The translations under genes were made by a program, and so were the position numbers. The notes beneath the pieces are model-generated. The model had not been told where the DNA came from. It was given only the letters and a program-made list of their open reading frames with translations, and ran no database searches. A DNA stretch of 62,848 nucleotides, the filler included, from Stramenopiles sp. TOSAG23-3 (Eukaryota), in NCBI GenBank assembly GCA_900128585.1. It is 35 parts of 35 records of this genome, joined end to end, with 100 filler letters (N's around TTAATTAATTAA, not from the genome) between each part and the next. Parts side by side here need not be neighbours in the genome. Positions count along the whole stretch, not along the records: positions 15,001 to 22,378 come from LT643163.1; 34 more parts are not named here. One strand, 5' to 3'. Below, in pieces: positions 1,447 through 62,848 of the stretch (positions within the stretch are counted from its first letter, which is position 1; every line of letters begins with the position of its first letter).

Positions 1447-4400
1447 ATGATAAGTGGTCCGCGGGGTCCACCTCGGGGTCCGCCAAGAGGGATGCCAAGA
1501 GGGATGCCGCGTGGAGGGGTCGGGGGAGGCGGGCCACCAAGGGGGCGAGGCCCTCCTAGGGGGCGTCCCCGTGGGCCTCCAGGGGCTCGCGGTCCCCCGA
1601 TTCCTCGAGGGTCGACAGCAGCCCGAGGGCCGCCGCCAGAGCTGTTGAAAAAAGCACAAAAAATATCGTCCGGCACGCCCCCCGCGAGTGCCTCCGCGAT
1701 TAAGGTAGCGTTTCCGAAAGGCAGCCTTGGGCTAAGCCTTGCGTCTGCCAGCGGAGCTGTCGTGGTTAAGAGTGTAAAGCCAAAAAGCTTTGCAGAGACG
1801 AGCGGGGTGACGAGTGGGAAAATCATCGTCTCCGTCGATGGGCTCGACTGCAAAGGAATGGGTGTGGATAAAGTAATGAAGCTGCTCAAAACCAACAAGC
1901 GCCCATTACACATTGTATTCGGAAATCCCGGACGGGAGCAGGCCTCTCCTGCGGCTGCTTCTGCGGCTCCTGCTGCTGGACAGGGCGGCAGCCAGGACAA
2001 CGCAAAATTGAAATCAGTTCAGCAGGAAGTGCTGTCCTTGAAGAAGAGCTTGCAGGGGAAGGAAAAGCTACTGAAGGCCGAGCAAGCCAAAAATAAAAAG
2101 ATGGTTGGGGAGAACGAGAAATTGAAAAAAGAGGTCGAAAAGTTTGCCAAGCGGGCTAAAGGGGGGAAAAAGGGGGCCGCCGTGGAAAGGGACCAGCTCG
2201 ACGCGGAGCTCACAAAGGTAAAGAAGGAGTACAAAGAGTTGAAGGGCGACCACGAAGAGTTGCAGGAAGACTTTGAGGAGCTCAGGAAAGATTTTCAAAT
2301 GGTGCGGGAAGACAAAGACGCGGCCGTGAAGAAGAGTGAGGAAGCCGCGGGCGACACGTCGTCGGTTTTAATGACCATCGATGGCCTTCGTTCGTTGAGC
2401 AGGATATCGTTTGACGGGCTGAGAAAAATAGAAAATGCAGTCTTGATTGACCAGGGAAAGGTAAAGAAACCAAAGGACTGGGATGGGGCTACGCCAATAC
2501 AGCGTATCCGGACCTTGCAGAAAGACCTGCGCCAAGGATTGCACGGAATGAACGTGGACGTTTCAACGGACGAAGAGAAGGCCGCCATGGAACTGGTGCA
2601 AGGTGCGAGCGAGGAGCACAAAGAGGCCGCGGCGAAAATTCAAAAAATACAGCGCGGTCGCCAGGCACGAAGGGAGCTAACAGAAAAGCGGCAGAAGGAA
2701 ATAGAGCTACAGAAGAGAGAGGACCAGAACGCGGCGGCGCTGAAAAAAGGAAACCTTTCCGCCAAAGACAAAGAGAAACTGGAGAAGGAAAAGACCGCCC
2801 TGTTGGCAGAGCACGAGAAATTGAAAAAAGAGATGCAGTCAGAAAGGGTTCGTTTGCAGAGGGAGCACACCACCAAGCACAAAAAATTAAAAGAAGAGCT
2901 GGAGAGCCACAAAAGTCGCCACATGGCGCTGAAGAAGCAGCACATGGAGCACCAAGCGCGCCACGAAAAGGTACTCGCCGAGCACAAGGCAATGCAGGCA
3001 AACTTGACAAAGCAGCACAGTGCGAAAAAGAGGCAAGATGGTGCCCGCGTGAGCCAAGCGAACAAGAACCTGACGGAGGTTAGGAAAGAGTTGAAGTCTG
3101 CGAAAGAGGGTTTTGAAAAATCGCAGCAAGAGGTGACAAAGCTGCAAGGAAAGATTAAAGCCATGGGGCGCCGCATTAAGGCGCAGGAAAAGAGCAACGA
3201 GGAACTGAACCGCCGTCTGAAGGAGCAAATCGCACTCAAGCGCAAGGGCGGCCCAGACAATGGACCTAGTGACGGCAAAGAAGACGTTCAAGAACGGCCC
3301 CCGTCCACCAAAGAGACCAACGCCGCAGCGACCAAAGTGCAGGCGCACGTTCGCCGTCGCCAAACCCAACAGAACTACAACAAAAAGAAAGAGAGGCTGC
3401 GTTTCGAGAAGGACCGCAATAGCCTGGTGAAAAAAGCCCGTCGCTGCGACCAACTAGAGCAAGAAGTAAAACGGCTTCGAGACCGCGTGCTGACATTGCA
3501 AAAAGAGGGCGCCACCAGCTTCGCCCAAAAAACGTCCAGGCAGTCGAAGCAGCAGCAGCGCAGAAAAAAGCGGTACGCCGACCGCAACGATCTGATTGAG
3601 CCCGACAGCGACTACGACGATGAGGCGGAGGCCTTGCGGGACGCTCGAAACGAGGACCCCCCTAAAGCAAACCGCGGCAGAGGGGCGAAAGTTACTCGCC
3701 CGGAGAAGGAAATGATCGACCTAGAAACGTTTGATGCGATCGTTCAGGAGCTGGAGATGCTCCAAGCGGCGTACAACAGCGTGAAGAAAGACATGGGACA
3801 GGAGAAGAAAAAGTGCGTGCGTCTGCAAAGGCTCCGGGCCGCCGCAGAGGAGGAAGCCTCTGCGGTCCGGGACACCAACCATCAGCTGCAGCGTGACCTT
3901 GATGAAGAAAGGATGGCTGCTGCGGTGGCGGAGGAGGAACGCAAGATTCAAGACGAGGAGGACGAAGCGAGCGGGCGGAGAAGGTTCCGATCGAACGGCC
4001 CCATGCTGCCCGACATGAGTGAGCACTTGCACATGCAACTCAGGGCATCTGAAGACGGTCGGATGGCCGCCCTTCTGGAGCTTCAGCGCTTGAAGGCCCA
4101 GCTCGACTACCACAGAGACTCGGATGCTGAACAAAAGCTGAAGATATCGCAGTTGGAAGACCGGCTGAACGCGTTGCGGGAAGCAAAGCGAAGGACGGAA
4201 ATGCACACGTTGAAAGTGGAAGAGGCGTTGGAAGAGCAGGCCATCAACATCAGGTCAAGAAAGCGAGAAGTGGAATCGTTGAAGCGGCAGGTAGGGACCA
4301 TTCGGGAAACAACGCAGAGGGAGTCGAACAACCTCTTCGCAAACCTGAACATGCTGACCCAGCAGCAGCAAATGATCGCGGGAACGAGCAGCATGAGCCC

Positions 4401-4794
4401 TCGAATGGAGGTCGTACCGTACGCCACCTCGCCAAAAAACTACGGGCAACGTGCCCCTCCCCTGTCCAGCCCGGACATCCGTGTTCTAAACGAAGCCGAA
4501 GTTGGGACGTTGAGCGGCGGGGTTCAACGGTCTGGGTACGCCAGAATTCACATGAAACCAACCCAACCAACTTTAATTAGACAGTCCCCTGCCCCAAGGC
4601 GGGGAGGAAGGCGGCGAGGGGCGGGCCCAAAAGCAAACGTCAGCCCTTTGAGAAGCGGCGGCTACGGTCCAACTAGTCCAACTGCTGGCCTGCAAAAGAA
4701 TATACAGAACCATAAACGCGCTGGGAAAACAAAAGAAAGACCAAGCCCAACGAACCCACGGTCGAAAGGAATGCGGGGCGGAAAGAGACGGTAA
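1447..4794 (+). CDS. PDZ domain + IQ motifs + long coiled-coil protein with a Pro/Gly/Arg-rich N-terminus
   Basis: 1115-aa ORF. PDZ-like segment KVAFPKGSLGLSL...VVVKSV...AETSGVTSGKIIVSVDG...RPLHIVF. IQ motifs AAAKIQKIQRGRQARR and AATKVQAHVRRRQTQQ. E/K-rich heptads. Confidence 0.85.
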   Translation: MISGPRGPPRGPPRGMPRGMPRGGVGGGGPPRGRGPPRGRPRGPPGARGPPIPRGSTAARGPPPELLKKAQKISSGTPPASASAIKVAFPKGSLGLSLASASGAVVVKSVKPKSFAETSGVTSGKIIVSVDGLDCKGMGVDKVMKLLKTNKRPLHIVFGNPGREQASPAAASAAPAAGQGGSQDNAKLKSVQQEVLSLKKSLQGKEKLLKAEQAKNKKMVGENEKLKKEVEKFAKRAKGGKKGAAVERDQLDAELTKVKKEYKELKGDHEELQEDFEELRKDFQMVREDKDAAVKKSEEAAGDTSSVLMTIDGLRSLSRISFDGLRKIENAVLIDQGKVKKPKDWDGATPIQRIRTLQKDLRQGLHGMNVDVSTDEEKAAMELVQGASEEHKEAAAKIQKIQRGRQARRELTEKRQKEIELQKREDQNAAALKKGNLSAKDKEKLEKEKTALLAEHEKLKKEMQSERVRLQREHTTKHKKLKEELESHKSRHMALKKQHMEHQARHEKVLAEHKAMQANLTKQHSAKKRQDGARVSQANKNLTEVRKELKSAKEGFEKSQQEVTKLQGKIKAMGRRIKAQEKSNEELNRRLKEQIALKRKGGPDNGPSDGKEDVQERPPSTKETNAAATKVQAHVRRRQTQQNYNKKKERLRFEKDRNSLVKKARRCDQLEQEVKRLRDRVLTLQKEGATSFAQKTSRQSKQQQRRKKRYADRNDLIEPDSDYDDEAEALRDARNEDPPKANRGRGAKVTRPEKEMIDLETFDAIVQELEMLQAAYNSVKKDMGQEKKKCVRLQRLRAAAEEEASAVRDTNHQLQRDLDEERMAAAVAEEERKIQDEEDEASGRRRFRSNGPMLPDMSEHLHMQLRASEDGRMAALLELQRLKAQLDYHRDSDAEQKLKISQLEDRLNALREAKRRTEMHTLKVEEALEEQAINIRSRKREVESLKRQVGTIRETTQRESNNLFANLNMLTQQQQMIAGTSSMSPRMEVVPYATSPKNYGQRAPPLSSPDIRVLNEAEVGTLSGGVQRSGYARIHMKPTQPTLIRQSPAPRRGGRRRGAGPKANVSPLRSGGYGPTSPTAGLQKNIQNHKRAGKTKERPSPTNPRSKGMRGGKRR

Positions 4795-5792: not shown

Positions 5793-6453
5793 CTTGCCAA
5801 CAAACAACCTTCTCTTGAGACGCGTTACGATTCACAACTCATAACCCTTCCTTGGTTCTTGAAACGAATGAAAAATAAATGAACTAATGAAAACGTCAAA
5901 CTGTTCATCGCGAGGGGAAATACTACAGTTTACACCACAGTCCTCCATCGTCTATCTTTATATTATTATTACATTATTAGTCGCGTCCGTTTTCTTCTTC
6001 TATTTTAAAAAATTTTATTTTTTATTATAATTATATTTATACCCTTGTTTTGGTAGAGGAGGAGGAGGAGTAGTAAAAAAGAAGAAAGAAGAAGAAGAAG
6101 ACGACGGCCTCTTCTTCTCTCTTCTCTCTCGCGGATCTTCTCGCTCCTCGGCGGCGGCTCGGCGGCTCGGCGGGCGCTCGCGGGGGGCGGAGAGCGGAGA
6201 GCGGAGGAGAGAAGAGGACGATATATGGTGGAGGAAGCTTGTTGTTGTTGTTGAGGAGAGATATTTTAATAAACAACTCGCTTTATATAATCCATCTGTG
6301 TATCTGTGTAGAGTGATTATAAAAAACTTGAGAAAGAAAGTTAAAGAAATTAACAGTTATATCTGGTGATTTTCAGTAGACTTGTTTTCATTTGTTTGAA
6401 GTTTGTGGTTTATTTTACCTACGTATATATACGACGACGACGTACACATATAC

Positions 6454-15866: not shown

Positions 15867-15890
15867 AAAACAAGAAAATTGGCTGTTATT
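15867..15890 (+). repeat. Dispersed 24-bp motif A, copy 1
   Basis: AAAACAAGAAAATTGGCTGTTATT, 25 bp beyond the stop of the 15916-18279 gene. Confidence 0.9.
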
Positions 15891-15915: not shown

Positions 15916-18279
15916 TCAAACTTTGCAATTACCATAACCACAGTCCTTTGTATCGCAAGATGGTTCGCAAGAGGGAAAGTCTACCAACCATTTGTCGACG
16001 CAATAGTAAGAGCATTGACGGGCACACCCAGTTTCTTTCAAGTTCATCATTTTTCGCAGGTTGCTGCTGCATTCCTCGGAGTCGATCCACCCATTGCTGC
16101 ATACGGGATTGTCCGATGCGGTAAGGGACCAGTCTGCACCAACAACGTTTTCCACCCACGGCGGCATTGCTGCGAGAGAGTTGTTGCGCACATCTAAATA
16201 CACCAACCTAAACTCTCCCATCCCGTCTGGGAACGAATCGACGGTCAATCTATTCCTCGCAATGTAGAAGTAACGGAGGTGCTTCAATGTCCCAATGCTG
16301 GCCGGTAGCGAGGTCAGGTTATTCCCAGAAATACTCAAGAGGGAGAGAGATGGAGATGTCTCGTGCCCCAGATTGGGCAATATCGAAATGGAATTGTTCG
16401 ACATTTCAAGGTAATGAAGGTTCTCCAGGTCCACCTCGGTGCCACCAAGTGAACCTGAGATTTGGTTCGACCCTGCGAACAATGCATACAATTCTTTCCT
16501 TCTCCAAAGTGCAGAGGGGAGTTCTTTTACGTTGTTGAACGCCACATCCAGTGTGTGCAAAAGGGGCAGTGTCGCGACGGCATCGGGAATCAAGGACAGT
16601 TGGTTGTTTCTAACGCTTAGTAATGACAAGTAATCCATCTTTTTCCCAAACTCTTGGCTCAATTCCTTCAGACCTACGTTCATGATTTCGGCACGGCGCA
16701 GCCCATCCATCGTGTTCACCACGTCCGGCAGGGCGCTCATGTTGAGATCTGACATCTTCAGCACAGCACAATTACAGCGCGGCGAAAACAAATTCCTACA
16801 GAGTGGAACCTTGACCCTGCAGTTTCCCCATACGGCTCGCTCCGGGGCCTGAGCCCCGCACAGCGCCGTGAAGCCTGGGTTGGCTACGGTAGCGGCCAAA
16901 AACACTACCATGGCAGACATGAAAGCCACGAATGTTCCCAGAACGAGGCGGACTACAAAAAGTGTGGACGGCGGCACATTGTCCCCTTGGATTTCTGCAA
17001 TCATATCAAACGCGAGCTGTGCATGGTTTATGTTCAGAGTTCTGCGCACGTTGCGGAACTGTTTCGCTACATTCTCGCGCAAAGTTTCATTTAGCAGAGA
17101 TTTAAGCTTTATCATGACCAGAATAGAATCTATCAAGACGATCTGAATCATCTCGGAAAGCGTTACTTTCACATCATACATCATATAAACCATATACGGT
17201 GGCAGCCAGGTCTCCAAAATCCTGGCCACAATTGCCACTTTCAGCCGCAGGCCCCGCAGCGCAACCGTGTTTACCCGGAAAGTGCTCCAGAGGATAAATA
17301 TCCTTTGCAAAGTAATCGCTACGCAGTAGATCGTCAGCACGACCGTATCCAACGTGCAGGAGAAGATTGAGATGAAGTTTACGATGGAGATGGCAGTAGA
17401 GGCAATCTGAAACCCATAGACTTTCATCATGTAATAAGGGCCTGTAATCGAAAACAATTTCTTTACCCTGCTGATCGATTTGTACGACAAGACCAGTTTT
17501 TTCCGTTCCGAGCTGTCGCCGACGTGTGTTATCGCGCGCACGAGAGCTCGCCGCATGATATTGTACGGTCGGTGTACAGCCTGCCTCTCTGCATCTTTAG
17601 GTGTTAGTTGGCGCACAAGTTGCATTTTCCTCGAACTTGGACGATGCCGTTGCATTGCATGCTCCACGTTCACTATCCCCATCATGCTGTCCTCTATAAA
17701 ATGTTTGATGATGTGCTTGTGCGATGTTGCAGTTCCCCTCTTAGCCCGGGAGCTGCCAATATGTCTCAAACTCTTTGACGTGTTCTGATGAACTTGTAGT
17801 TTGATTTCCTTTATCACATTGTATTTTGCCGTGAGGGCGGAGTGGACCCCAAGATAAAGGTATCCTACTCCTAACATCACGAAAATGATGATCCCCATAC
17901 GTCTGAAATTAGCGAAATGTGCCGTGTACTCCCAAATTAAAATGACCTGAGGGCCTGCAAGAAGGATCATAGACAGGATAATAATGACGCCTTTGACCTG
18001 CACGGCATGAAAAAAAGAAAAACTTTCAACGTCATCTTGCATCTGCGTCAGTCTCCCTTTGGTTTCGCTACTACGACTAATCACCCGTCCAATAGGCGTA
18101 TCCGCCATTGACAGTTCCAAGTTTTTAATGACCACTGGTGCATCATCCTCACTAGTGTCGCTATCACTGATTTCAACGATAGGCCGCGGAGGAGACTGCA
18201 GGGAAGGGTCTCCTTTTCTCATGGGATTACTCGTAAATAGACCATCCATTTTATATAACACAGTGCAATCAAAATGCAA
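15916..18279 (-). CDS. Multi-pass membrane protein with C-terminal leucine-rich repeats and an LNR-like Cys module
   Basis: Several hydrophobic helices in the N-terminal two thirds. LRRs LSLLSVRNNQL, LHTLDVAFNNV, LHYLEMSNNSI, LSLLSISGNNL, LVYLDVRNNSL. Ends in CSYYCVDKWLVDFPSCEPSCDTKDCGY. Confidence 0.85.
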   Translation of the reverse strand: MHFDCTVLYKMDGLFTSNPMRKGDPSLQSPPRPIVEISDSDTSEDDAPVVIKNLELSMADTPIGRVISRSSETKGRLTQMQDDVESFSFFHAVQVKGVIIILSMILLAGPQVILIWEYTAHFANFRRMGIIIFVMLGVGYLYLGVHSALTAKYNVIKEIKLQVHQNTSKSLRHIGSSRAKRGTATSHKHIIKHFIEDSMMGIVNVEHAMQRHRPSSRKMQLVRQLTPKDAERQAVHRPYNIMRRALVRAITHVGDSSERKKLVLSYKSISRVKKLFSITGPYYMMKVYGFQIASTAISIVNFISIFSCTLDTVVLTIYCVAITLQRIFILWSTFRVNTVALRGLRLKVAIVARILETWLPPYMVYMMYDVKVTLSEMIQIVLIDSILVMIKLKSLLNETLRENVAKQFRNVRRTLNINHAQLAFDMIAEIQGDNVPPSTLFVVRLVLGTFVAFMSAMVVFLAATVANPGFTALCGAQAPERAVWGNCRVKVPLCRNLFSPRCNCAVLKMSDLNMSALPDVVNTMDGLRRAEIMNVGLKELSQEFGKKMDYLSLLSVRNNQLSLIPDAVATLPLLHTLDVAFNNVKELPSALWRRKELYALFAGSNQISGSLGGTEVDLENLHYLEMSNNSISILPNLGHETSPSLSLLSISGNNLTSLPASIGTLKHLRYFYIARNRLTVDSFPDGMGEFRLVYLDVRNNSLAAMPPWVENVVGADWSLTASDNPVCSNGWIDSEECSSNLRKMMNLKETGCARQCSYYCVDKWLVDFPSCEPSCDTKDCGYGNCKV

Positions 18280-19386
18280 TCAATACAATCGATCAAAACG
18301 GGATGAATAAATCAAGGTCTGTCTAACTGATCAATTTCTATTTCATTTTATTTTTTATAAAATTAATATAAGAAAAAGACCACCAAAAAGCCAGTTTCTT
18401 CCTTTTTTGTTGTAGAGGAGGAGTGGTGGTGTGAGGAGGAGTGTGAGGGAAGGAAGGTAGATGAAAAGAAGAAGTGAAAAGTGAAAAGCGAGAAAATCAT
18501 TCAAAAACAAAAAAGAGTCATCCTTCTATCTCCTATATAAATACTATAAATAATTACTACATATTTTATACTATAGGTGTATACCATTCATAACGGTAGT
18601 TACGTATATTACACAAAAAGCAATAGTGAGTCGTTAGTCTTCATTCTTTCCTCACCATCCTTTCGTTTAACATATTCAGTATAACTTATTCCTATCAATA
18701 GTATATACTAATATACAAATACATCTAGGTAGCATAGAAGAAACGATTCTACATAACAATAGCATCACTTCAGAATGAGGAATCAAAGAAGAAAAGGAAA
18801 AGAAAAAAGTCAACAAAATGGGGGAACACCACAATCCATACTATGTTGATGTTCCTACCATCAATTCTATCCACCACATGATTCATCTTAATATTTAGAT
18901 CATTTTCATCCTACTTTTTACCGTTTGTACTAATAAAGTTTACAACGTCCCTCTGCAATATATCTGTATTGTTGAAGAATATAGACACACCATTGATATT
19001 ATCAATTATGAGTGAAATAGCACCGATATGAATAATACACTTTTTATGACACTTTCGTTACTGAATCAATTAAGGAATATGAGACAGATAGAAATGGCTC
19101 ATTGCGTTGCACAAATTGAATTATAGGTTGAATAAAGTCAAACACCAATTTGGTTTGATTTCATACGATTACTAGTAGTTCCTTAATATCTGGATCGTTC
19201 AGAAAAGTTTGGAAAAACAATTTCCAAGTTTTGTATGTGTGAAATGTACCAAACGATTAAGCCAACTGGCTTGGATTGAAAAGAAAAGGATCTCCTTTGA
19301 GGGCGATGAGAAAAGTTGTTAGAGAGAGAGTAAACGATTGCGAGAGATTGTTGGTTCGTATTTGTTTTTGTTGTTCGGAATTAATT

Positions 19387-27455: not shown

Positions 27456-27977
27456 NNNNNNNNNNNNNNNNNNNNNNNNNNNNNNNNNNNNNNNNNNNNT
27501 TAATTAATTAANNNNNNNNNNNNNNNNNNNNNNNNNNNNNNNNNNNNNNNNNNNNACCGGTACCGGTACCCCGTAGTAATTAATTGGTAGAACGAGGAGG
27601 AATAATACCTGGTACGGTACAGGTAAACAGCAGGATTATTTATATGATAGTCCTACTCGTACTCCTATATCTTCGTACACGACCAAAATGAGTTGTTGTT
27701 GTTGCGGTCTTTTTTTGTCCGTTGTGTTGTTGTTGTTGATTTTTTTTTTTTAACAAAAAAACTACTACCAACTACAACAACTAACTACGGAACTGCGGGC
27801 ATGCCGCTCTTTTTTGTTGTTGCTGTTTGTTTGTTACGCGAAGTAAATGTTTGTCAAATCGAAAGACGTTGAAGTATGTATTTATAGCTGATGAAACGGC
27901 AAAGGTTTACTAAATAGACAGAACGAGGACATTTATCAGGCGATAGACGGGTTCGTTCGTTTCGAAAATACAGAGCT

Positions 27978-28583
27978 ATGTCAAGTGCAAGATTAAGTGG
28001 ACGGAGTGCAACTGCGCGGTCAGCAGTTAGATTTAGTGGCAGGCCAGGGGCTAGCTCGAACAGGCGTCCCACCAATACTAGGGTGCAAGAGGGGGGCGCC
28101 TCACCGGGCTTTGCAAACTTGCAGGCAGACATTAACGAAAAAAAAAAGCTAGAGCAGAAAATGCTGCGTATTGAAAGACGGTTGAAGAAGGCAAATCGGG
28201 CTCTTCGGCGAAAGCACGGTCTGTCTTCTACAAGGACATCAGAAATAGATGTTGCAAACTTACCCCCGCCGTCCTGGAGACCATTGGATCCAGAATATGT
28301 GATGAACTCGCCTGGGGTAAGCCCTCTTTTATCATCAGGGTACGGAAACACAGCCAGGTTTAGAACACAGACGGACGCCTCCATAGCGTATTCTGCTAAT
28401 GCTCCTGAGAGAGTCAGATTTGCCGAGATAGAAGAAATTATAGACAACAGCATGAGTAATAACATAGTGGGGCCTCATAAAAAAAAGGCAGCAGAATTCA
28501 CCGTATTTGCAGAAGCTGCGAGCCGGCTAGGTATAAATTTAAGCGCAACCGGACACGGTACCGACGCATACGAATTGCACTAA
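27978..28583 (+). CDS. Hypothetical protein (201 aa)
   Basis: ATG-to-TAA ORF with coding-like composition between AT-rich flanks; no recognised domain. Confidence 0.6.
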   Translation: MSSARLSGRSATARSAVRFSGRPGASSNRRPTNTRVQEGGASPGFANLQADINEKKKLEQKMLRIERRLKKANRALRRKHGLSSTRTSEIDVANLPPPSWRPLDPEYVMNSPGVSPLLSSGYGNTARFRTQTDASIAYSANAPERVRFAEIEEIIDNSMSNNIVGPHKKKAAEFTVFAEAASRLGINLSATGHGTDAYELH

Positions 28584-28658: not shown

Positions 28659-28724
28659 AAAACAAGAAAATTGGCTGTTATTTAAGTAATTAAAATTAAT
28701 GTACACTGCGAACTGAACTCTAGA
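28659..28724 (+). repeat. Motif A copy 2 with ~40-bp extension shared with 62043-62111
   Basis: AAAACAAGAAAATTGGCTGTTATTTAAGTAATTAAAATTAATGTACACTGCGAACTGAACTCTA; the contig ends here. Confidence 0.9.
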
Positions 28725-62042: not shown

Positions 62043-62111
62043 AAAACAAGAAAATTGGCTGTTATTTAAGTAAGTAAAATTAATGTACTGCGAACTGCGA
62101 ACTGAAATCTA
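62043..62111 (+). repeat. Motif A copy 5 with extension shared with 28659-28724
   Basis: AAAACAAGAAAATTGGCTGTTATTTAAGTAAGTAAAATTAATGTACTGCGAACTGCGAACTGAAATCTA. Confidence 0.9.
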
Positions 62112-62503
62112 TCTTTGCTCTTTTGGTCTGACTAATCGATATTCCCTTGTCACTCTACTTACATTATAATAGTCAGTCCTCCAACCACAAATAACACCTC
62201 CTCAAAATATATAAAAATAAATGGAGAGAAGGCTAAATAGATTATCACCAAGTTGAATGAATGATGACGACACGCCATGCGACCAACGCGAGAGGGAAAA
62301 AACGTATGAATTTGAAATTTTTTTAAGTGTTCGCAGAATTTGTTAGGCCTTCCAGATTATTTTATAAAGTCTCAGAACTTTTACCCAGCCTCTCAAGTGT
62401 GGTATTAGACTTAAATGTCATTACAAAATGTCGCACTTACTTGTTTGATTAGGCGTTAGTCGTGCATGCGGCTGTGCCGGAACGGGAGTTTAGGTTCTTT
62501 AAT

Positions 62504-62809
62504 AAAAACAAGAAAATTGGCTGTTATTTAGGTAATTAAAATTAAATACAAAAATTTGGCTTTGTTATTTAAAAAAAAGTCAGTGATTGACAATCAACGA
62601 AACGAAATTAAAAAATGAAAATTAAAAAATCAAATTAAATCATCAAGATAGGACTACGGTTGGAACTGAAATCGTAATTGATAATATAAAAAATGAGAGT
62701 CTTTTAAAGCATACACTATTATATATATATATTTTTTTTTTAAAGTAATTAAAATTTATCTTCCTCAATAATATATTACTTATAAATAACAGCCAATTTT
62801 TTGATTTTT
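62504..62809. repeat. Motif A copies 6 (+, 62505-62528) and 7 (-, 62785-62809) forming an inverted pair ~305 bp across (MITE-like)
   Basis: AAAAACAAGAAAATTGGCTGTTATTTA ... TAAATAACAGCCAATTTTTTGATTTTT; a decayed tandem copy lies at 62548-62571. Confidence 0.7.
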
Positions 62810-62848
62810 AAATATCTGGTTGATCAGAGAAATGCCACACCAGTTTTT

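What the first reader, a model, noticed from the sequence alone, without database searches (positions are those of the whole stretch)
15867..15890. Conserved 24-bp non-coding element AAAACAAGAAAATTGGCTGTTATT recurring just 3' of unrelated genes
Seen: exact copies at 15867(+), 28659(+), 39343(-), 62043(+) and 62505(+), and variants at 36981(-) and 62785(-). That is 7 copies on 5 independent contigs in ~59 kb of real sequence. On all 4 contigs with genes it lies 25-160 bp from a stop codon, twice between convergent genes, and it is absent from the long divergent promoter regions (526-1446, 5793-6453, 18280-19386). Flanks of most copies are unrelated and each copy is preceded by a T-rich run. Inference: if this density holds genome-wide there are very many copies. 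It could be a lineage-specific, orientation-independent termination/insulator or protein-binding site, a 3'UTR element, or the terminus of a small mobile element that targets gene 3' ends. I recognise no described motif like it.
Basis: partly seen in the sequence, partly recalled or inferred. Interest (0 to 1): 0.78.

Follow-up and report, generated by a model that had tools for sequence, protein, structure and literature searches.

The report
Tail end of a jumping gene
The repeated 24-letter motif is the fixed tail end of a retrotransposon that has scattered very many short, head-truncated copies of itself just behind the genes of an uncultured marine protist; it is a mobile-element scar, not a new kind of regulatory signal.

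Summary
The window holds 5 exact copies and 1 copy with 3 mismatches, against 0 expected, plus a degenerate copy at 36981.

The motif is one fixed end of inserts 24 to 336 nt long. These are flanked by 10-15 bp target-site duplications: 48 of 132 sites against 6 of 130 in an offset control.

Read on the opposite strand, the longer copies carry the C-terminus of an ORF, a stop codon and a 3'UTR of about 110-170 nt that ends exactly in the 24-mer. One contig shows a 1191-aa open frame, a stop, a 113-nt 3'UTR and then the motif.

By eye, that ORF has reverse-transcriptase-like QGDP and FADD motifs, then a Cys/His motif and a nuclease domain. The best structural matches of that domain are R2 retrotransposon proteins (Z 7.1).

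I read this as the 3' terminus of a LINE (non-LTR retrotransposon) that encodes a restriction-like endonuclease and is copied in by target-primed reverse transcription with heavy 5' truncation.

Depth in three metagenomes is 3,000-4,700 times that of the flanks. Sites are 40 convergent, 15 tandem and 1 divergent spacer.

This is a new member of a known kind. Whether the 3'-of-gene bias comes from targeting or from selection is open.

The parts
15867..15890 (-). Minimal insert, about 24 nt. The 24-mer as written lies on +, so the element's sense strand is -. It lies 25 nt behind the stop (15916-15918) of the LRR gene 15916..18279(-), in the same orientation as that gene.
   Evidence: Exact match. 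Stop and spacing. No clear target-site duplication was found here (one search lists none for this copy).
28659..28724 (-). The 24-mer plus 42 nt of family-A 3'UTR-derived sequence, cut off by the contig end.
   Evidence: It is 74-89% alike to family-A copies in the loci over 66-85 nt.
36885..37004 (+). Older, degenerate 5'-truncated copy of about 120 nt. The 24-mer variant (5 mismatches) is at 36981-37004. It lies between convergent ORFs that end at 36852(+) and 37090(-).
   Evidence: It is 75-82% alike to 3'UTR parts in other loci.
39339..39366 (+). 28-nt insert: the 24-mer at 39343-39366 plus 4 nt.
   Evidence: Contigs of three DNA metagenomes break or pile up exactly here.
39326..39338 (.). 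Target-site duplication, left copy (13 bp, 1 mismatch to the right copy).
39367..39379 (.). Target-site duplication, right copy.
62043..62153 (-). 111-nt 5'-truncated copy: the 24-mer plus family-A 3'UTR, reaching to just behind the element's stop codon.
   Evidence: It is 80% alike to L089 over 115 nt and 93% alike to L122 over 68 nt.
62505..62546 (-). The 24-mer plus about 18 nt of the common extension. A degenerate partial second copy follows at about 62548-62571.
62741..62808 (+). Variant copy (3 mismatches in the 24-mer at 62785-62808) with about 45 nt of 3'UTR-derived sequence, inside a nest of other repeats.

Best explanation
The 24-mer, read on its opposite strand, is the last 24 nt of the RNA of a family of non-LTR retrotransposons (LINEs). 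Their single long ORF carries a reverse transcriptase, a Cys/His motif and a restriction-like (PD-(D/E)XK) endonuclease.

Proposed mechanism:
- The endonuclease nicks A/T-rich DNA, with a weak consensus of W W | W A W.
- The freed 3' end primes reverse transcription from the very 3' end of the element RNA (target-primed reverse transcription).
- Copying usually aborts early, so inserts always keep the 3' terminus but lose a variable amount of the 5' side, down to 24-30 nt.
- A second nick about 11 bp away gives the 10-15 bp target-site duplications.

Shown: the fixed end and variable other end, the duplications, ORF then stop then 3'UTR then motif in one contig, high copy number, and placement behind genes.

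Inferred: the enzyme activities (from motifs and fold), that the exact conservation of the terminus reflects recognition by the element's own reverse transcriptase, and the cause of the 3'-of-gene bias (selection against promoter hits or active targeting).
For: 2. Target-site duplications score >=9 at 48 of 132 sites against 6 of 130 in a control offset by 40 nt, and >=11 at 29 against 2. Insert lengths run from 24 to 336 nt, always from the same end. The 25 exact duplications of >=10 bp are 10-13 bp long, with one of 15 bp.
3. Longer inserts contain the C-terminus of an ORF, a stop and a 3'UTR ending in the motif, in two or more families with different 3'UTRs but the same last ~40 nt.
4. L132 has a 1191-aa frame without stops running off the contig start, a stop at 3575-3577, a 113-nt 3'UTR and the motif at 3667-3690, followed by unrelated DNA.
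5. ORF-derived pieces occur in 18 of 129 loci, mostly only the last ~100 residues. This is a 5'-truncation gradient.
6. ORF content:
   - ..GTQQGDPIG.. and, about 50 residues on..AFADDL.. (read by eye as reverse-transcriptase motifs B and C).
   - A Cys/His cluster and a nuclease-like region that are 36% identical (E 3e-71) to a second element, which has QPD where this one has QAD.
   - The motif names CCHC, RH, PD..D, K..KY and RG.W come from passages of PMC4838377. This ORF shows K-G-Q-K-Y.
7. The predicted structure of P0004 (region 410-560 at pLDDT 67-94) has R2 retrotransposon proteins as its best matches, on their C-terminal CCHC/endonuclease part.
   - Foldseek ranks 1-3 are R2 proteins, at E 0.03-0.14.
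   - VIA second look: the top 7 of 582 chains are R2 proteins, Z 6.5-7.1.
   - Foldseek-independent search of 48,161 chains: ranks 1-2 are R2 proteins, Z 7.1 and 6.6.
8. Summed contig depth at the motif is about 27,000, 15,000 and 18,000, against 6.5, 4.6 and 3.8-5.8 in the flanks, in three DNA metagenomes. In those runs 1023, 661 and 734 contigs were laid.
9. The 24-mer is exact, while adjoining 3'UTR-derived parts are only 71-93% alike between copies.
Against: - No Pfam RVT_1 hit on any piece, and no sequence match to solved structures.
- My hhalign of the N-terminal 150 residues against four LTR-type reverse transcriptases gave probability 0.07.
- Only the C-terminal part of the presumed reverse transcriptase is in hand, because L132 is cut at the contig start.
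- All structural scores are middling: no Foldseek match at E<=0.001 and Z below 8. The model's overall pLDDT is 52.6.
- No empty-site allele was found (one search shows no joints; searches found none among 45 locus pairs).
- In the window itself only 1 of the copies has a clear duplication.
- The 3' tail shows no significant RNA fold, so recognition by structure is unsupported.
- L132 comes from a bin titled as a bacterial MAG. I read it as a mis-binned eukaryotic repeat contig.
Confidence: 0.87

Rival explanations
1. The 24-mer is a host cis-element, such as an orientation-independent terminator or insulator, a protein-binding site or a 3'UTR signal, kept behind genes by selection.
For: Placement is strongly behind genes: 40 convergent, 15 tandem and 1 divergent spacer, at a median of 133 nt from a stop. 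The motif is exact while neighbouring sequence varies. It is present in poly(A)-selected RNA contigs, with summed depth 383 against 3.6.
Against: - The copies are bounded by target-site duplications and continue into the 3'UTR and ORF of a mobile element.
- There is no orientation bias to the upstream gene, at 43 same and 57 opposite.
- Copies cluster and nest next to each other at irregular spacing.
- There is no significant fold and no Rfam family.
- Secondary co-option of some copies is not excluded.
Confidence: 0.05
2. The motif is the terminal inverted repeat of a MITE or other DNA transposon.
For: Some copies lie in inverted pairs, for example 62505(+) and 62785(-) in the window. There are 9 facing pairs within 600 bp in the loci.
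Against: - Of 42 neighbouring pairs, 25 are direct and 17 inverted, with spacings from 27 to 583 bp and no preferred distance. Most copies are solitary.
- Duplications vary in length from 10 to 15 bp.
- One end is fixed and the other variable.
- The motif sits at the 3' end of a sense-oriented ORF and 3'UTR.
Confidence: 0.02
3. The motif is the promoter or first exon of dispersed small-RNA or spliced-leader genes. This was my first idea, from the GT after ..TTATTTAAG and the shared sequence about 45 nt on.
For: In several copies the motif is followed by TAAG|GTAA-like letters and an A/T-rich box, then ACTGCGAAC.
Against: - The shared sequence is the antisense of the element's 3'UTR.
- No Rfam match at gathering score, nor any match at E<=10 near a copy, and no tRNA-like gene.
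- Many copies stop after 24-30 nt at a duplication.
Confidence: 0.01
4. The motif is an artefact: a library adapter or an amplification chimera of a single-cell genome.
For: The window is a very fragmented assembly of short contigs.
Against: - The motif stands in contigs of several independent metagenome assemblies and in three DNA metagenome runs of different studies.
- It always sits inside ordinary flanking DNA, with duplications.
- The viral collection has 0 matches and the prokaryote genome collection has 1, which is a mis-binned contig.
Confidence: 0.01

Closest known systems
[quoted passage not shown]
   Same: - One long ORF with a reverse-transcriptase region, then a Cys/His motif, then a PD-(D/E)XK-type nuclease at the C-terminus.
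- Best structural matches are R2 proteins.
- A defined 3' end without a poly(A) run, 5' truncation and target-site duplications.
   Different: - Most of those clades insert into one repeated target such as rRNA, spliced-leader or U2 genes, or microsatellites (PMC4640811 passage). Here the flanks are unrelated A/T-rich DNA with only a weak W W | W A W consensus, as that paper says for many HERO families.
- The spacing from FADD to the Cys/His motif is about 650 residues, and the ORF has a Ser/Asp/Glu-rich tail.
- No Pfam model recognises any part.
- The clade is not assigned, because the N-terminal half of the reverse transcriptase is missing and no tree was built.
R2 3' untranslated-region protein-binding motif, and 'stringent' LINEs whose reverse transcriptase recognises its own 3' tail
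   Same: PMC4838377 (passages) states that RNA motifs in the R2 3'UTR bind the R2 protein. Here at least two families with different 3'UTRs share the same last ~40 nt, and the last 24 nt are exact where the rest is 71-93% alike.
   Different: No stable hairpin is predicted in this tail, and binding was not tested. The comparison with 'stringent' LINEs is from recall, not from a call.
Leishmania SIDER1/SIDER2 short degenerate retroposons
   Same: Large families of truncated retroposon remnants lying mostly in 3'UTRs behind genes of an intron-poor protist (abstracts of PMC2323293, PMC5689007 and PMC2943621 in the listing).
   Different: SIDERs are extinct, and those abstracts say they control mRNA decay. 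Here the element family still has an intact 1191-aa frame, the copies are 3'-end tags of 24-340 nt in either orientation, and no function is shown.
Dong (R4 clade), a LINE that inserts into (TAA)n repeats
   Same: The first bases after the element's 3' end are T/A, A, A.
   Different: The targets here are not microsatellites. The Dong target is recalled; I saw only its entry in the reference list of PMC4640811.

Membership tests
Non-LTR retrotransposon (LINE) inserted by target-primed reverse transcription | Constant 3' end with variable 5' truncation | tested here: met
   Inserts of 24-336 nt all start at the same end. ORF-derived pieces in 18 of 129 loci are mostly only the last ~100 residues.
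Non-LTR retrotransposon (LINE) inserted by target-primed reverse transcription | Target-site duplications of variable length flanking each insert | tested here: met
   48 of 132 sites against 6 of 130 in the control. Exact duplications are 10-15 bp.
Non-LTR retrotransposon (LINE) inserted by target-primed reverse transcription | Encodes a reverse transcriptase | tested here: inconclusive
   QGDP and FADD motifs about 50 residues apart were read by eye in L132. The best named Atlas cluster carries RVT_1 in 20% of its members, score 0.92 (a lead only). There is no Pfam hit. hhalign against LTR-type reverse transcriptases gave probability 0.07. The N-terminal half is missing.
LINEs encoding a restriction-like endonuclease (R2, R4, CRE, NeSL, HERO) | Cys/His (CCHC) motif downstream of the reverse transcriptase | tested here: met
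   A C.C..C..H..C..H cluster is visible in L132 and P0004 and is conserved in the 36%-identical relative L139. The model aligns to the R2 region that begins at its CCHC part (R2 of Bombyx, residues 917-1107).
LINEs encoding a restriction-like endonuclease (R2, R4, CRE, NeSL, HERO) | PD-(D/E)XK nuclease fold and residues at the C-terminus | tested here: inconclusive
   R2 proteins are the top matches in three searches, but Z is 6.5-7.1 and Foldseek E is >=0.03. The residues QAD (QPD in the relative), DVHF and K..KY were read by eye. There is no residue-level alignment to R2.
LINEs encoding a restriction-like endonuclease (R2, R4, CRE, NeSL, HERO) | Insertion into one specific repeated target (true of most clades, not of HERO) | tested here: not met
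   The flanks are unrelated and only a weak A/T consensus is seen.
LINEs encoding a restriction-like endonuclease (R2, R4, CRE, NeSL, HERO) | Placement in a clade by reverse-transcriptase phylogeny | not tested
MITE / terminal-inverted-repeat DNA transposon | Two inverted termini at a constant distance and a fixed-length duplication | tested here: not met
   Only 9 facing pairs, at spacings of 42-583 bp. Duplications are 10-15 bp.
SINE (pol III-derived head) | tRNA-, 7SL- or 5S-related 5' part | tested here: inconclusive
   No tRNA-like sequence and no Rfam match in the window. The longer copies continue into the LINE ORF rather than into a head, so I read the short copies as truncated LINE ends.
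Described RNA families or intrinsic-terminator-like structure | Match to a curated model, or a stable stem-loop | tested here: not met
   0 matches at gathering score. None near a copy at E<=10. Fold z-scores are 0.6-1.3, no better than shuffles.

The most novel reading that the evidence does not exclude
This endonuclease-bearing LINE is actively directed to the termination zones behind protein-coding genes, rather than merely surviving there. Its abortive copying has tagged a large share of the host's 3' intergenic regions and 3'UTRs with an identical 24-40-nt sequence, which the host may now use, for example as a common binding site. That would be a gene-3'-end-targeting LINE, a targeting mode I know for no LINE (recall, not searched beyond).
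Probability: 0.2. Interest if true: 0.65.

Novelty: new member of a known kind. Interest (0 to 1): 0.4.

Why it matters
This explains a striking, exactly conserved motif as the scar of a mobile element and stops it being mistaken for a regulatory signal.

It also brings to light a very abundant, probably still active LINE family in a widespread uncultured marine protist with a compact, intron-poor genome. The family encodes a restriction-like endonuclease and no Pfam model recognises it.

Three features could interest transposon biologists:
- Extreme truncation, down to 24-30 nt.
- A copy number probably in the thousands.
- A 40:1 preference for the spacers behind genes over promoter spacers, at equal base composition.

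Practically, the motif breaks metagenome assemblies at every copy. Its contigs also get binned into bacterial MAGs.

Tried and rejected
Checks that gave nothing or were closed:
- Whole genome of the window: none is held.
- Rfam at gathering score and at E<=10: nothing near the copies. tRNA scan: none.
- Literature search for the motif letters: 9 papers, all unrelated primers or sequences, judged from the listing only.
- Spliced-leader or snRNA-promoter idea: dropped.
- RNA folds of the tail on both strands: not better than shuffles.

Attempts to characterise the ORF:
- Pfam on all ORF pieces: only a sub-threshold zf-primase hit on the Cys/His cluster.
- Sequence searches of solved structures, by single sequences and by profile: none relevant.
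- Search for longer proteins with the N-terminal part of P0004: none.
- The all-library HMMER search gave 265 hits, and the 150 listed are all short fragments.
- The model of P0158 was poor (pLDDT 53.7) and its Foldseek list was meaningless.
- hhalign against LTR-type reverse transcriptases: no match.
- My guess of a Ulp1-like protease in the second element (L139) got no Pfam support.

Attempts to reach a full-length copy:
The alignment was not usable for a locus search. The viral collection has 0 motif matches.
- Other RVT_1 contigs of G001 are LTR-type elements, not the missing 5' half. C54 has no overlap with C157.

Search for empty-site alleles:
- No joints in the three DNA runs on contig 17.
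- No presence/absence difference among 45 locus pairs that share long stretches.

Other points:
- Base composition as the cause of the placement bias: GC is 0.327 in divergent and 0.318 in convergent spacers, so it was rejected as the sole cause.

Full report
**What the window is.** The 62,848 bases are 35 contigs joined by N spacers, three of about 7.4 kb and 32 of about 1.16 kb. Long uninterrupted ORFs carry eukaryotic domains: PDZ/IQ, ubiquitin hydrolase, LRR, Spo11, myotubularin and an outer-dynein-arm docking coiled coil. About 20 of the short contigs are one open frame from end to end. Coding DNA is about 45-55% G+C, and the mostly non-coding contigs are about 25-31%. I read the host as an intron-poor, flagellated eukaryote. 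One of its contigs is held by many marine metagenomes (20 runs of 15 studies). No whole genome is held.

**The observation.** The 24-mer is exact at 15867(+), 28659(+), 39343(-), 62043(+) and 62505(+). It has 3 mismatches at 62785(-). None of 100 shuffles gave a match. The 36981(-) variant has 5 mismatches.

**It is one end of an insert.**
- After removing duplicates, 134 instances were listed side by side. The DNA on one side of the motif is unrelated from copy to copy. On the other side many copies continue into shared sequence and then break off at different points.
- In many copies, the 10-13 bases before the motif recur right where the shared sequence stops.
- A systematic test gave such duplications (score >=9) at 48 of 132 testable sites, against 6 of 130 when the probe was taken 40 nt further out. 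At score >=11 the counts were 29 against 2.
- The inserts so defined are 24-336 nt long. Sixteen of the 48 are 36 nt or shorter.
- The 25 exact duplications of >=10 bp measure 10 (8 cases), 11 (9), 12 (5), 13 (2) and 15 bp (1).
- In the window, the 39343 copy is a 28-nt insert between 13-bp duplications that differ at one base.

**Which strand is the sense strand.**
- Reverse-complemented, the longer inserts read as the end of an ORF (…DEEVDYGS…W S x L, stop), followed by a 3'UTR that ends exactly in the reverse complement of the 24-mer.
- At least two families have different 3'UTRs but share the last ~40 nt.
- The cleanest case is L132. It has a 1191-residue frame without stops that runs off the contig start, a stop codon at 3575-3577 and a 113-nt 3'UTR. 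The motif is at 3667-3690, followed by unrelated DNA.
- ORF-derived pieces occur in 18 of the 129 loci and in none of the window's contigs. Most hold only the last ~100 residues.
- A fixed 3' end, variable 5' truncation and duplications of variable length are the marks of target-primed reverse transcription. I take this from established knowledge of LINEs; the mechanism is also named in the PMC4838377 passages.

**What the ORF encodes.**
- Database proteins P0004 (776 aa) and P0001 (744 aa) end with the same C-terminus.
- An exhaustive HMMER search found 265 relatives; the 150 listed are all short fragments.
- Walking upstream through P0006 and P0158, and then L132, gives the order below.
- First come ..GTQQGDPIG.. 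and, about 50 residues later, ..AFADDL.., which I read as reverse-transcriptase motifs B and C. The motif definitions are from recall.
- About 650 residues with no recognisable family follow.
- Next is a Cys/His cluster, and then a region with QAD, DVHF and K-G-Q-K-Y.
- The ORF ends in a Ser/Asp/Glu-rich tail.
- A second element in the same bin (L139) is 36% identical over this nuclease region (E 3e-71) and has QPD at the first site.
- Passages of PMC4838377 name the R2 endonuclease motifs as CCHC, RH, PD..D, K..KY and RG.W.
- The AlphaFold model of P0004 is poor overall (pLDDT 52.6) but good for residues about 410-560.
- Its best matches are R2 retrotransposon proteins, on their C-terminal CCHC/endonuclease part. 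Foldseek ranks 1-3 are R2 proteins at E 0.03-0.14, with none at E<=0.001.
- In the VIA second look, the top 7 of 582 chains are R2 proteins (Z 6.5-7.1, 163-196 residues aligned, rmsd 4.7-5.5).
- In a Foldseek-independent search of 48,161 chains, ranks 1-2 are R2 proteins (Z 7.1 and 6.6). The endonuclease-like domain of Prp8 and influenza PA endonucleases come next.
- These Z values are in the range where chance arrangements occur, so the fold evidence is supportive, not decisive.

**Against the enzyme assignment.** No Pfam family is found on any piece. There is no sequence match to solved structures. hhalign gave no similarity to four LTR-type reverse transcriptases. The reverse-transcriptase assignment therefore rests on two short motifs, an Atlas lead (RVT_1 in 20% of the best named cluster, score 0.92) and the genomic marks of retroposition.

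**Abundance.**
- On contig 17, the summed contig depth over the motif is about 27,000, 15,000 and 18,000. The flanks are at 6.5, 4.6 and 3.8-5.8 in three DNA metagenomes of different studies.
- In those runs, 1023, 661 and 734 contigs were laid on the motif.
- The tool warns that summed depth is not a copy number. The ratio of 3,000-4,700 in all three runs, and the window's density of about one copy per 8-10 kb, both point to thousands of copies.
- Assemblies break at the motif (table 8).
- A poly(A)-selected RNA run holds it in 43 contigs, at depth 383 against 3.6. This fits copies inside host 3'UTRs, element transcripts, or both.

**Placement.**
- Among sites with an ORF of >=150 aa on both sides, 40 lie between convergent genes, 15 between tandem genes and 1 between divergent genes. 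None lies inside a long ORF.
- The median distance to a stop is 133 nt, against 703 nt to the start side of an ORF.
- A genome has as many divergent as convergent spacers. Their G+C here is alike, at 0.327 and 0.318. Composition therefore does not explain the bias.
- Orientation relative to the upstream gene is 43 same and 57 opposite.
- Around the first nick, the target is W W | W A W with almost no G/C.
- Copies cluster: there are 42 neighbouring pairs within 600 bp, in any orientation and at any spacing. This argues against a two-ended DNA transposon.
- Whether the bias is due to targeting or to selection against promoter insertions cannot be told here. I found no empty sites.

**Why the motif is exact.** The 3'UTR-derived parts of the window's longer copies are only 71-93% alike to other copies, while their 24-mer is identical. 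Families with different 3'UTRs keep the same terminus. I infer constraint on the terminus in the active elements, most simply because their reverse transcriptase must start there. R2's 3'UTR binds its protein (PMC4838377 passage). No stable hairpin is predicted, and this step is untested.

**Verdict.** The finding is real and abundant, and it is explained as the 3' terminus of a new family of LINEs encoding a restriction-like endonuclease. It is a new member of a known kind. The 3'-of-gene bias, the pile-up of 24-36-nt inserts and the long unassigned stretch in the ORF remain unexplained (note 109).

Supplements of the papers were not read; the Utopia paper's PDF supplements could not have been seen here. 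No search was made for a prior description of this family beyond. It may exist in repeat libraries that I could not consult.

Noticed in passing
window 62694-62714; L139 (G001:C21) 3'UTR: A second short repeat (..GTATGTTTTAAGACTCTCA..) recurs in the same A/T-rich spacers: 19 hits in 17 of 129 loci and 1 in the window, against 1 for the reversed control. It lies in the 3'UTR of a second ORF whose Cys/His and nuclease region is 36% identical to this element's. A second retroposon family is probably leaving 3' tags.
   Followed up: partly
G001 contigs C157, C21, C116, C12, C17, C97, C54 (L132, L139-L144): A bin titled as a Dehalococcoidia MAG holds at least 7 contigs of eukaryote-type retroelements with open frames of 816-2055 aa. 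Five have RVT_1 hits above the cut-off. C54 shows protease-like and YMDD motifs. High-copy repeat contigs appear to have been mis-binned into a bacterial genome.
   Followed up: partly
window 62505-62848 (contig 35): This is a nest of at least four repeat pieces in both orientations, with no ORF. Nearly every base from 62505 to about 62816 recurs in other loci.
   Followed up: partly
window 39377: All three DNA metagenomes lack 3 nt here relative to the window, right beside the 39343 copy, inside the right-hand duplication (table 4).
   Followed up: no
window 27854-28583: Two overlapping ORFs of about 200 aa on opposite strands, neither with a Pfam family. Which one is the gene next to the 28659 copy is unclear.
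   Followed up: no
L022 385-2434: Two partial copies of the element's C-terminal ORF region lie in tandem on one metagenome contig, about 69% identical to each other. This is either a nested or tandem insertion or an assembly collapse.
   Followed up: no
L132 ORF, residues about 90-720: About 650 residues lie between the FADD motif and the Cys/His cluster, with no family match and low model confidence. This is much longer than I recall for R2.
   Followed up: partly
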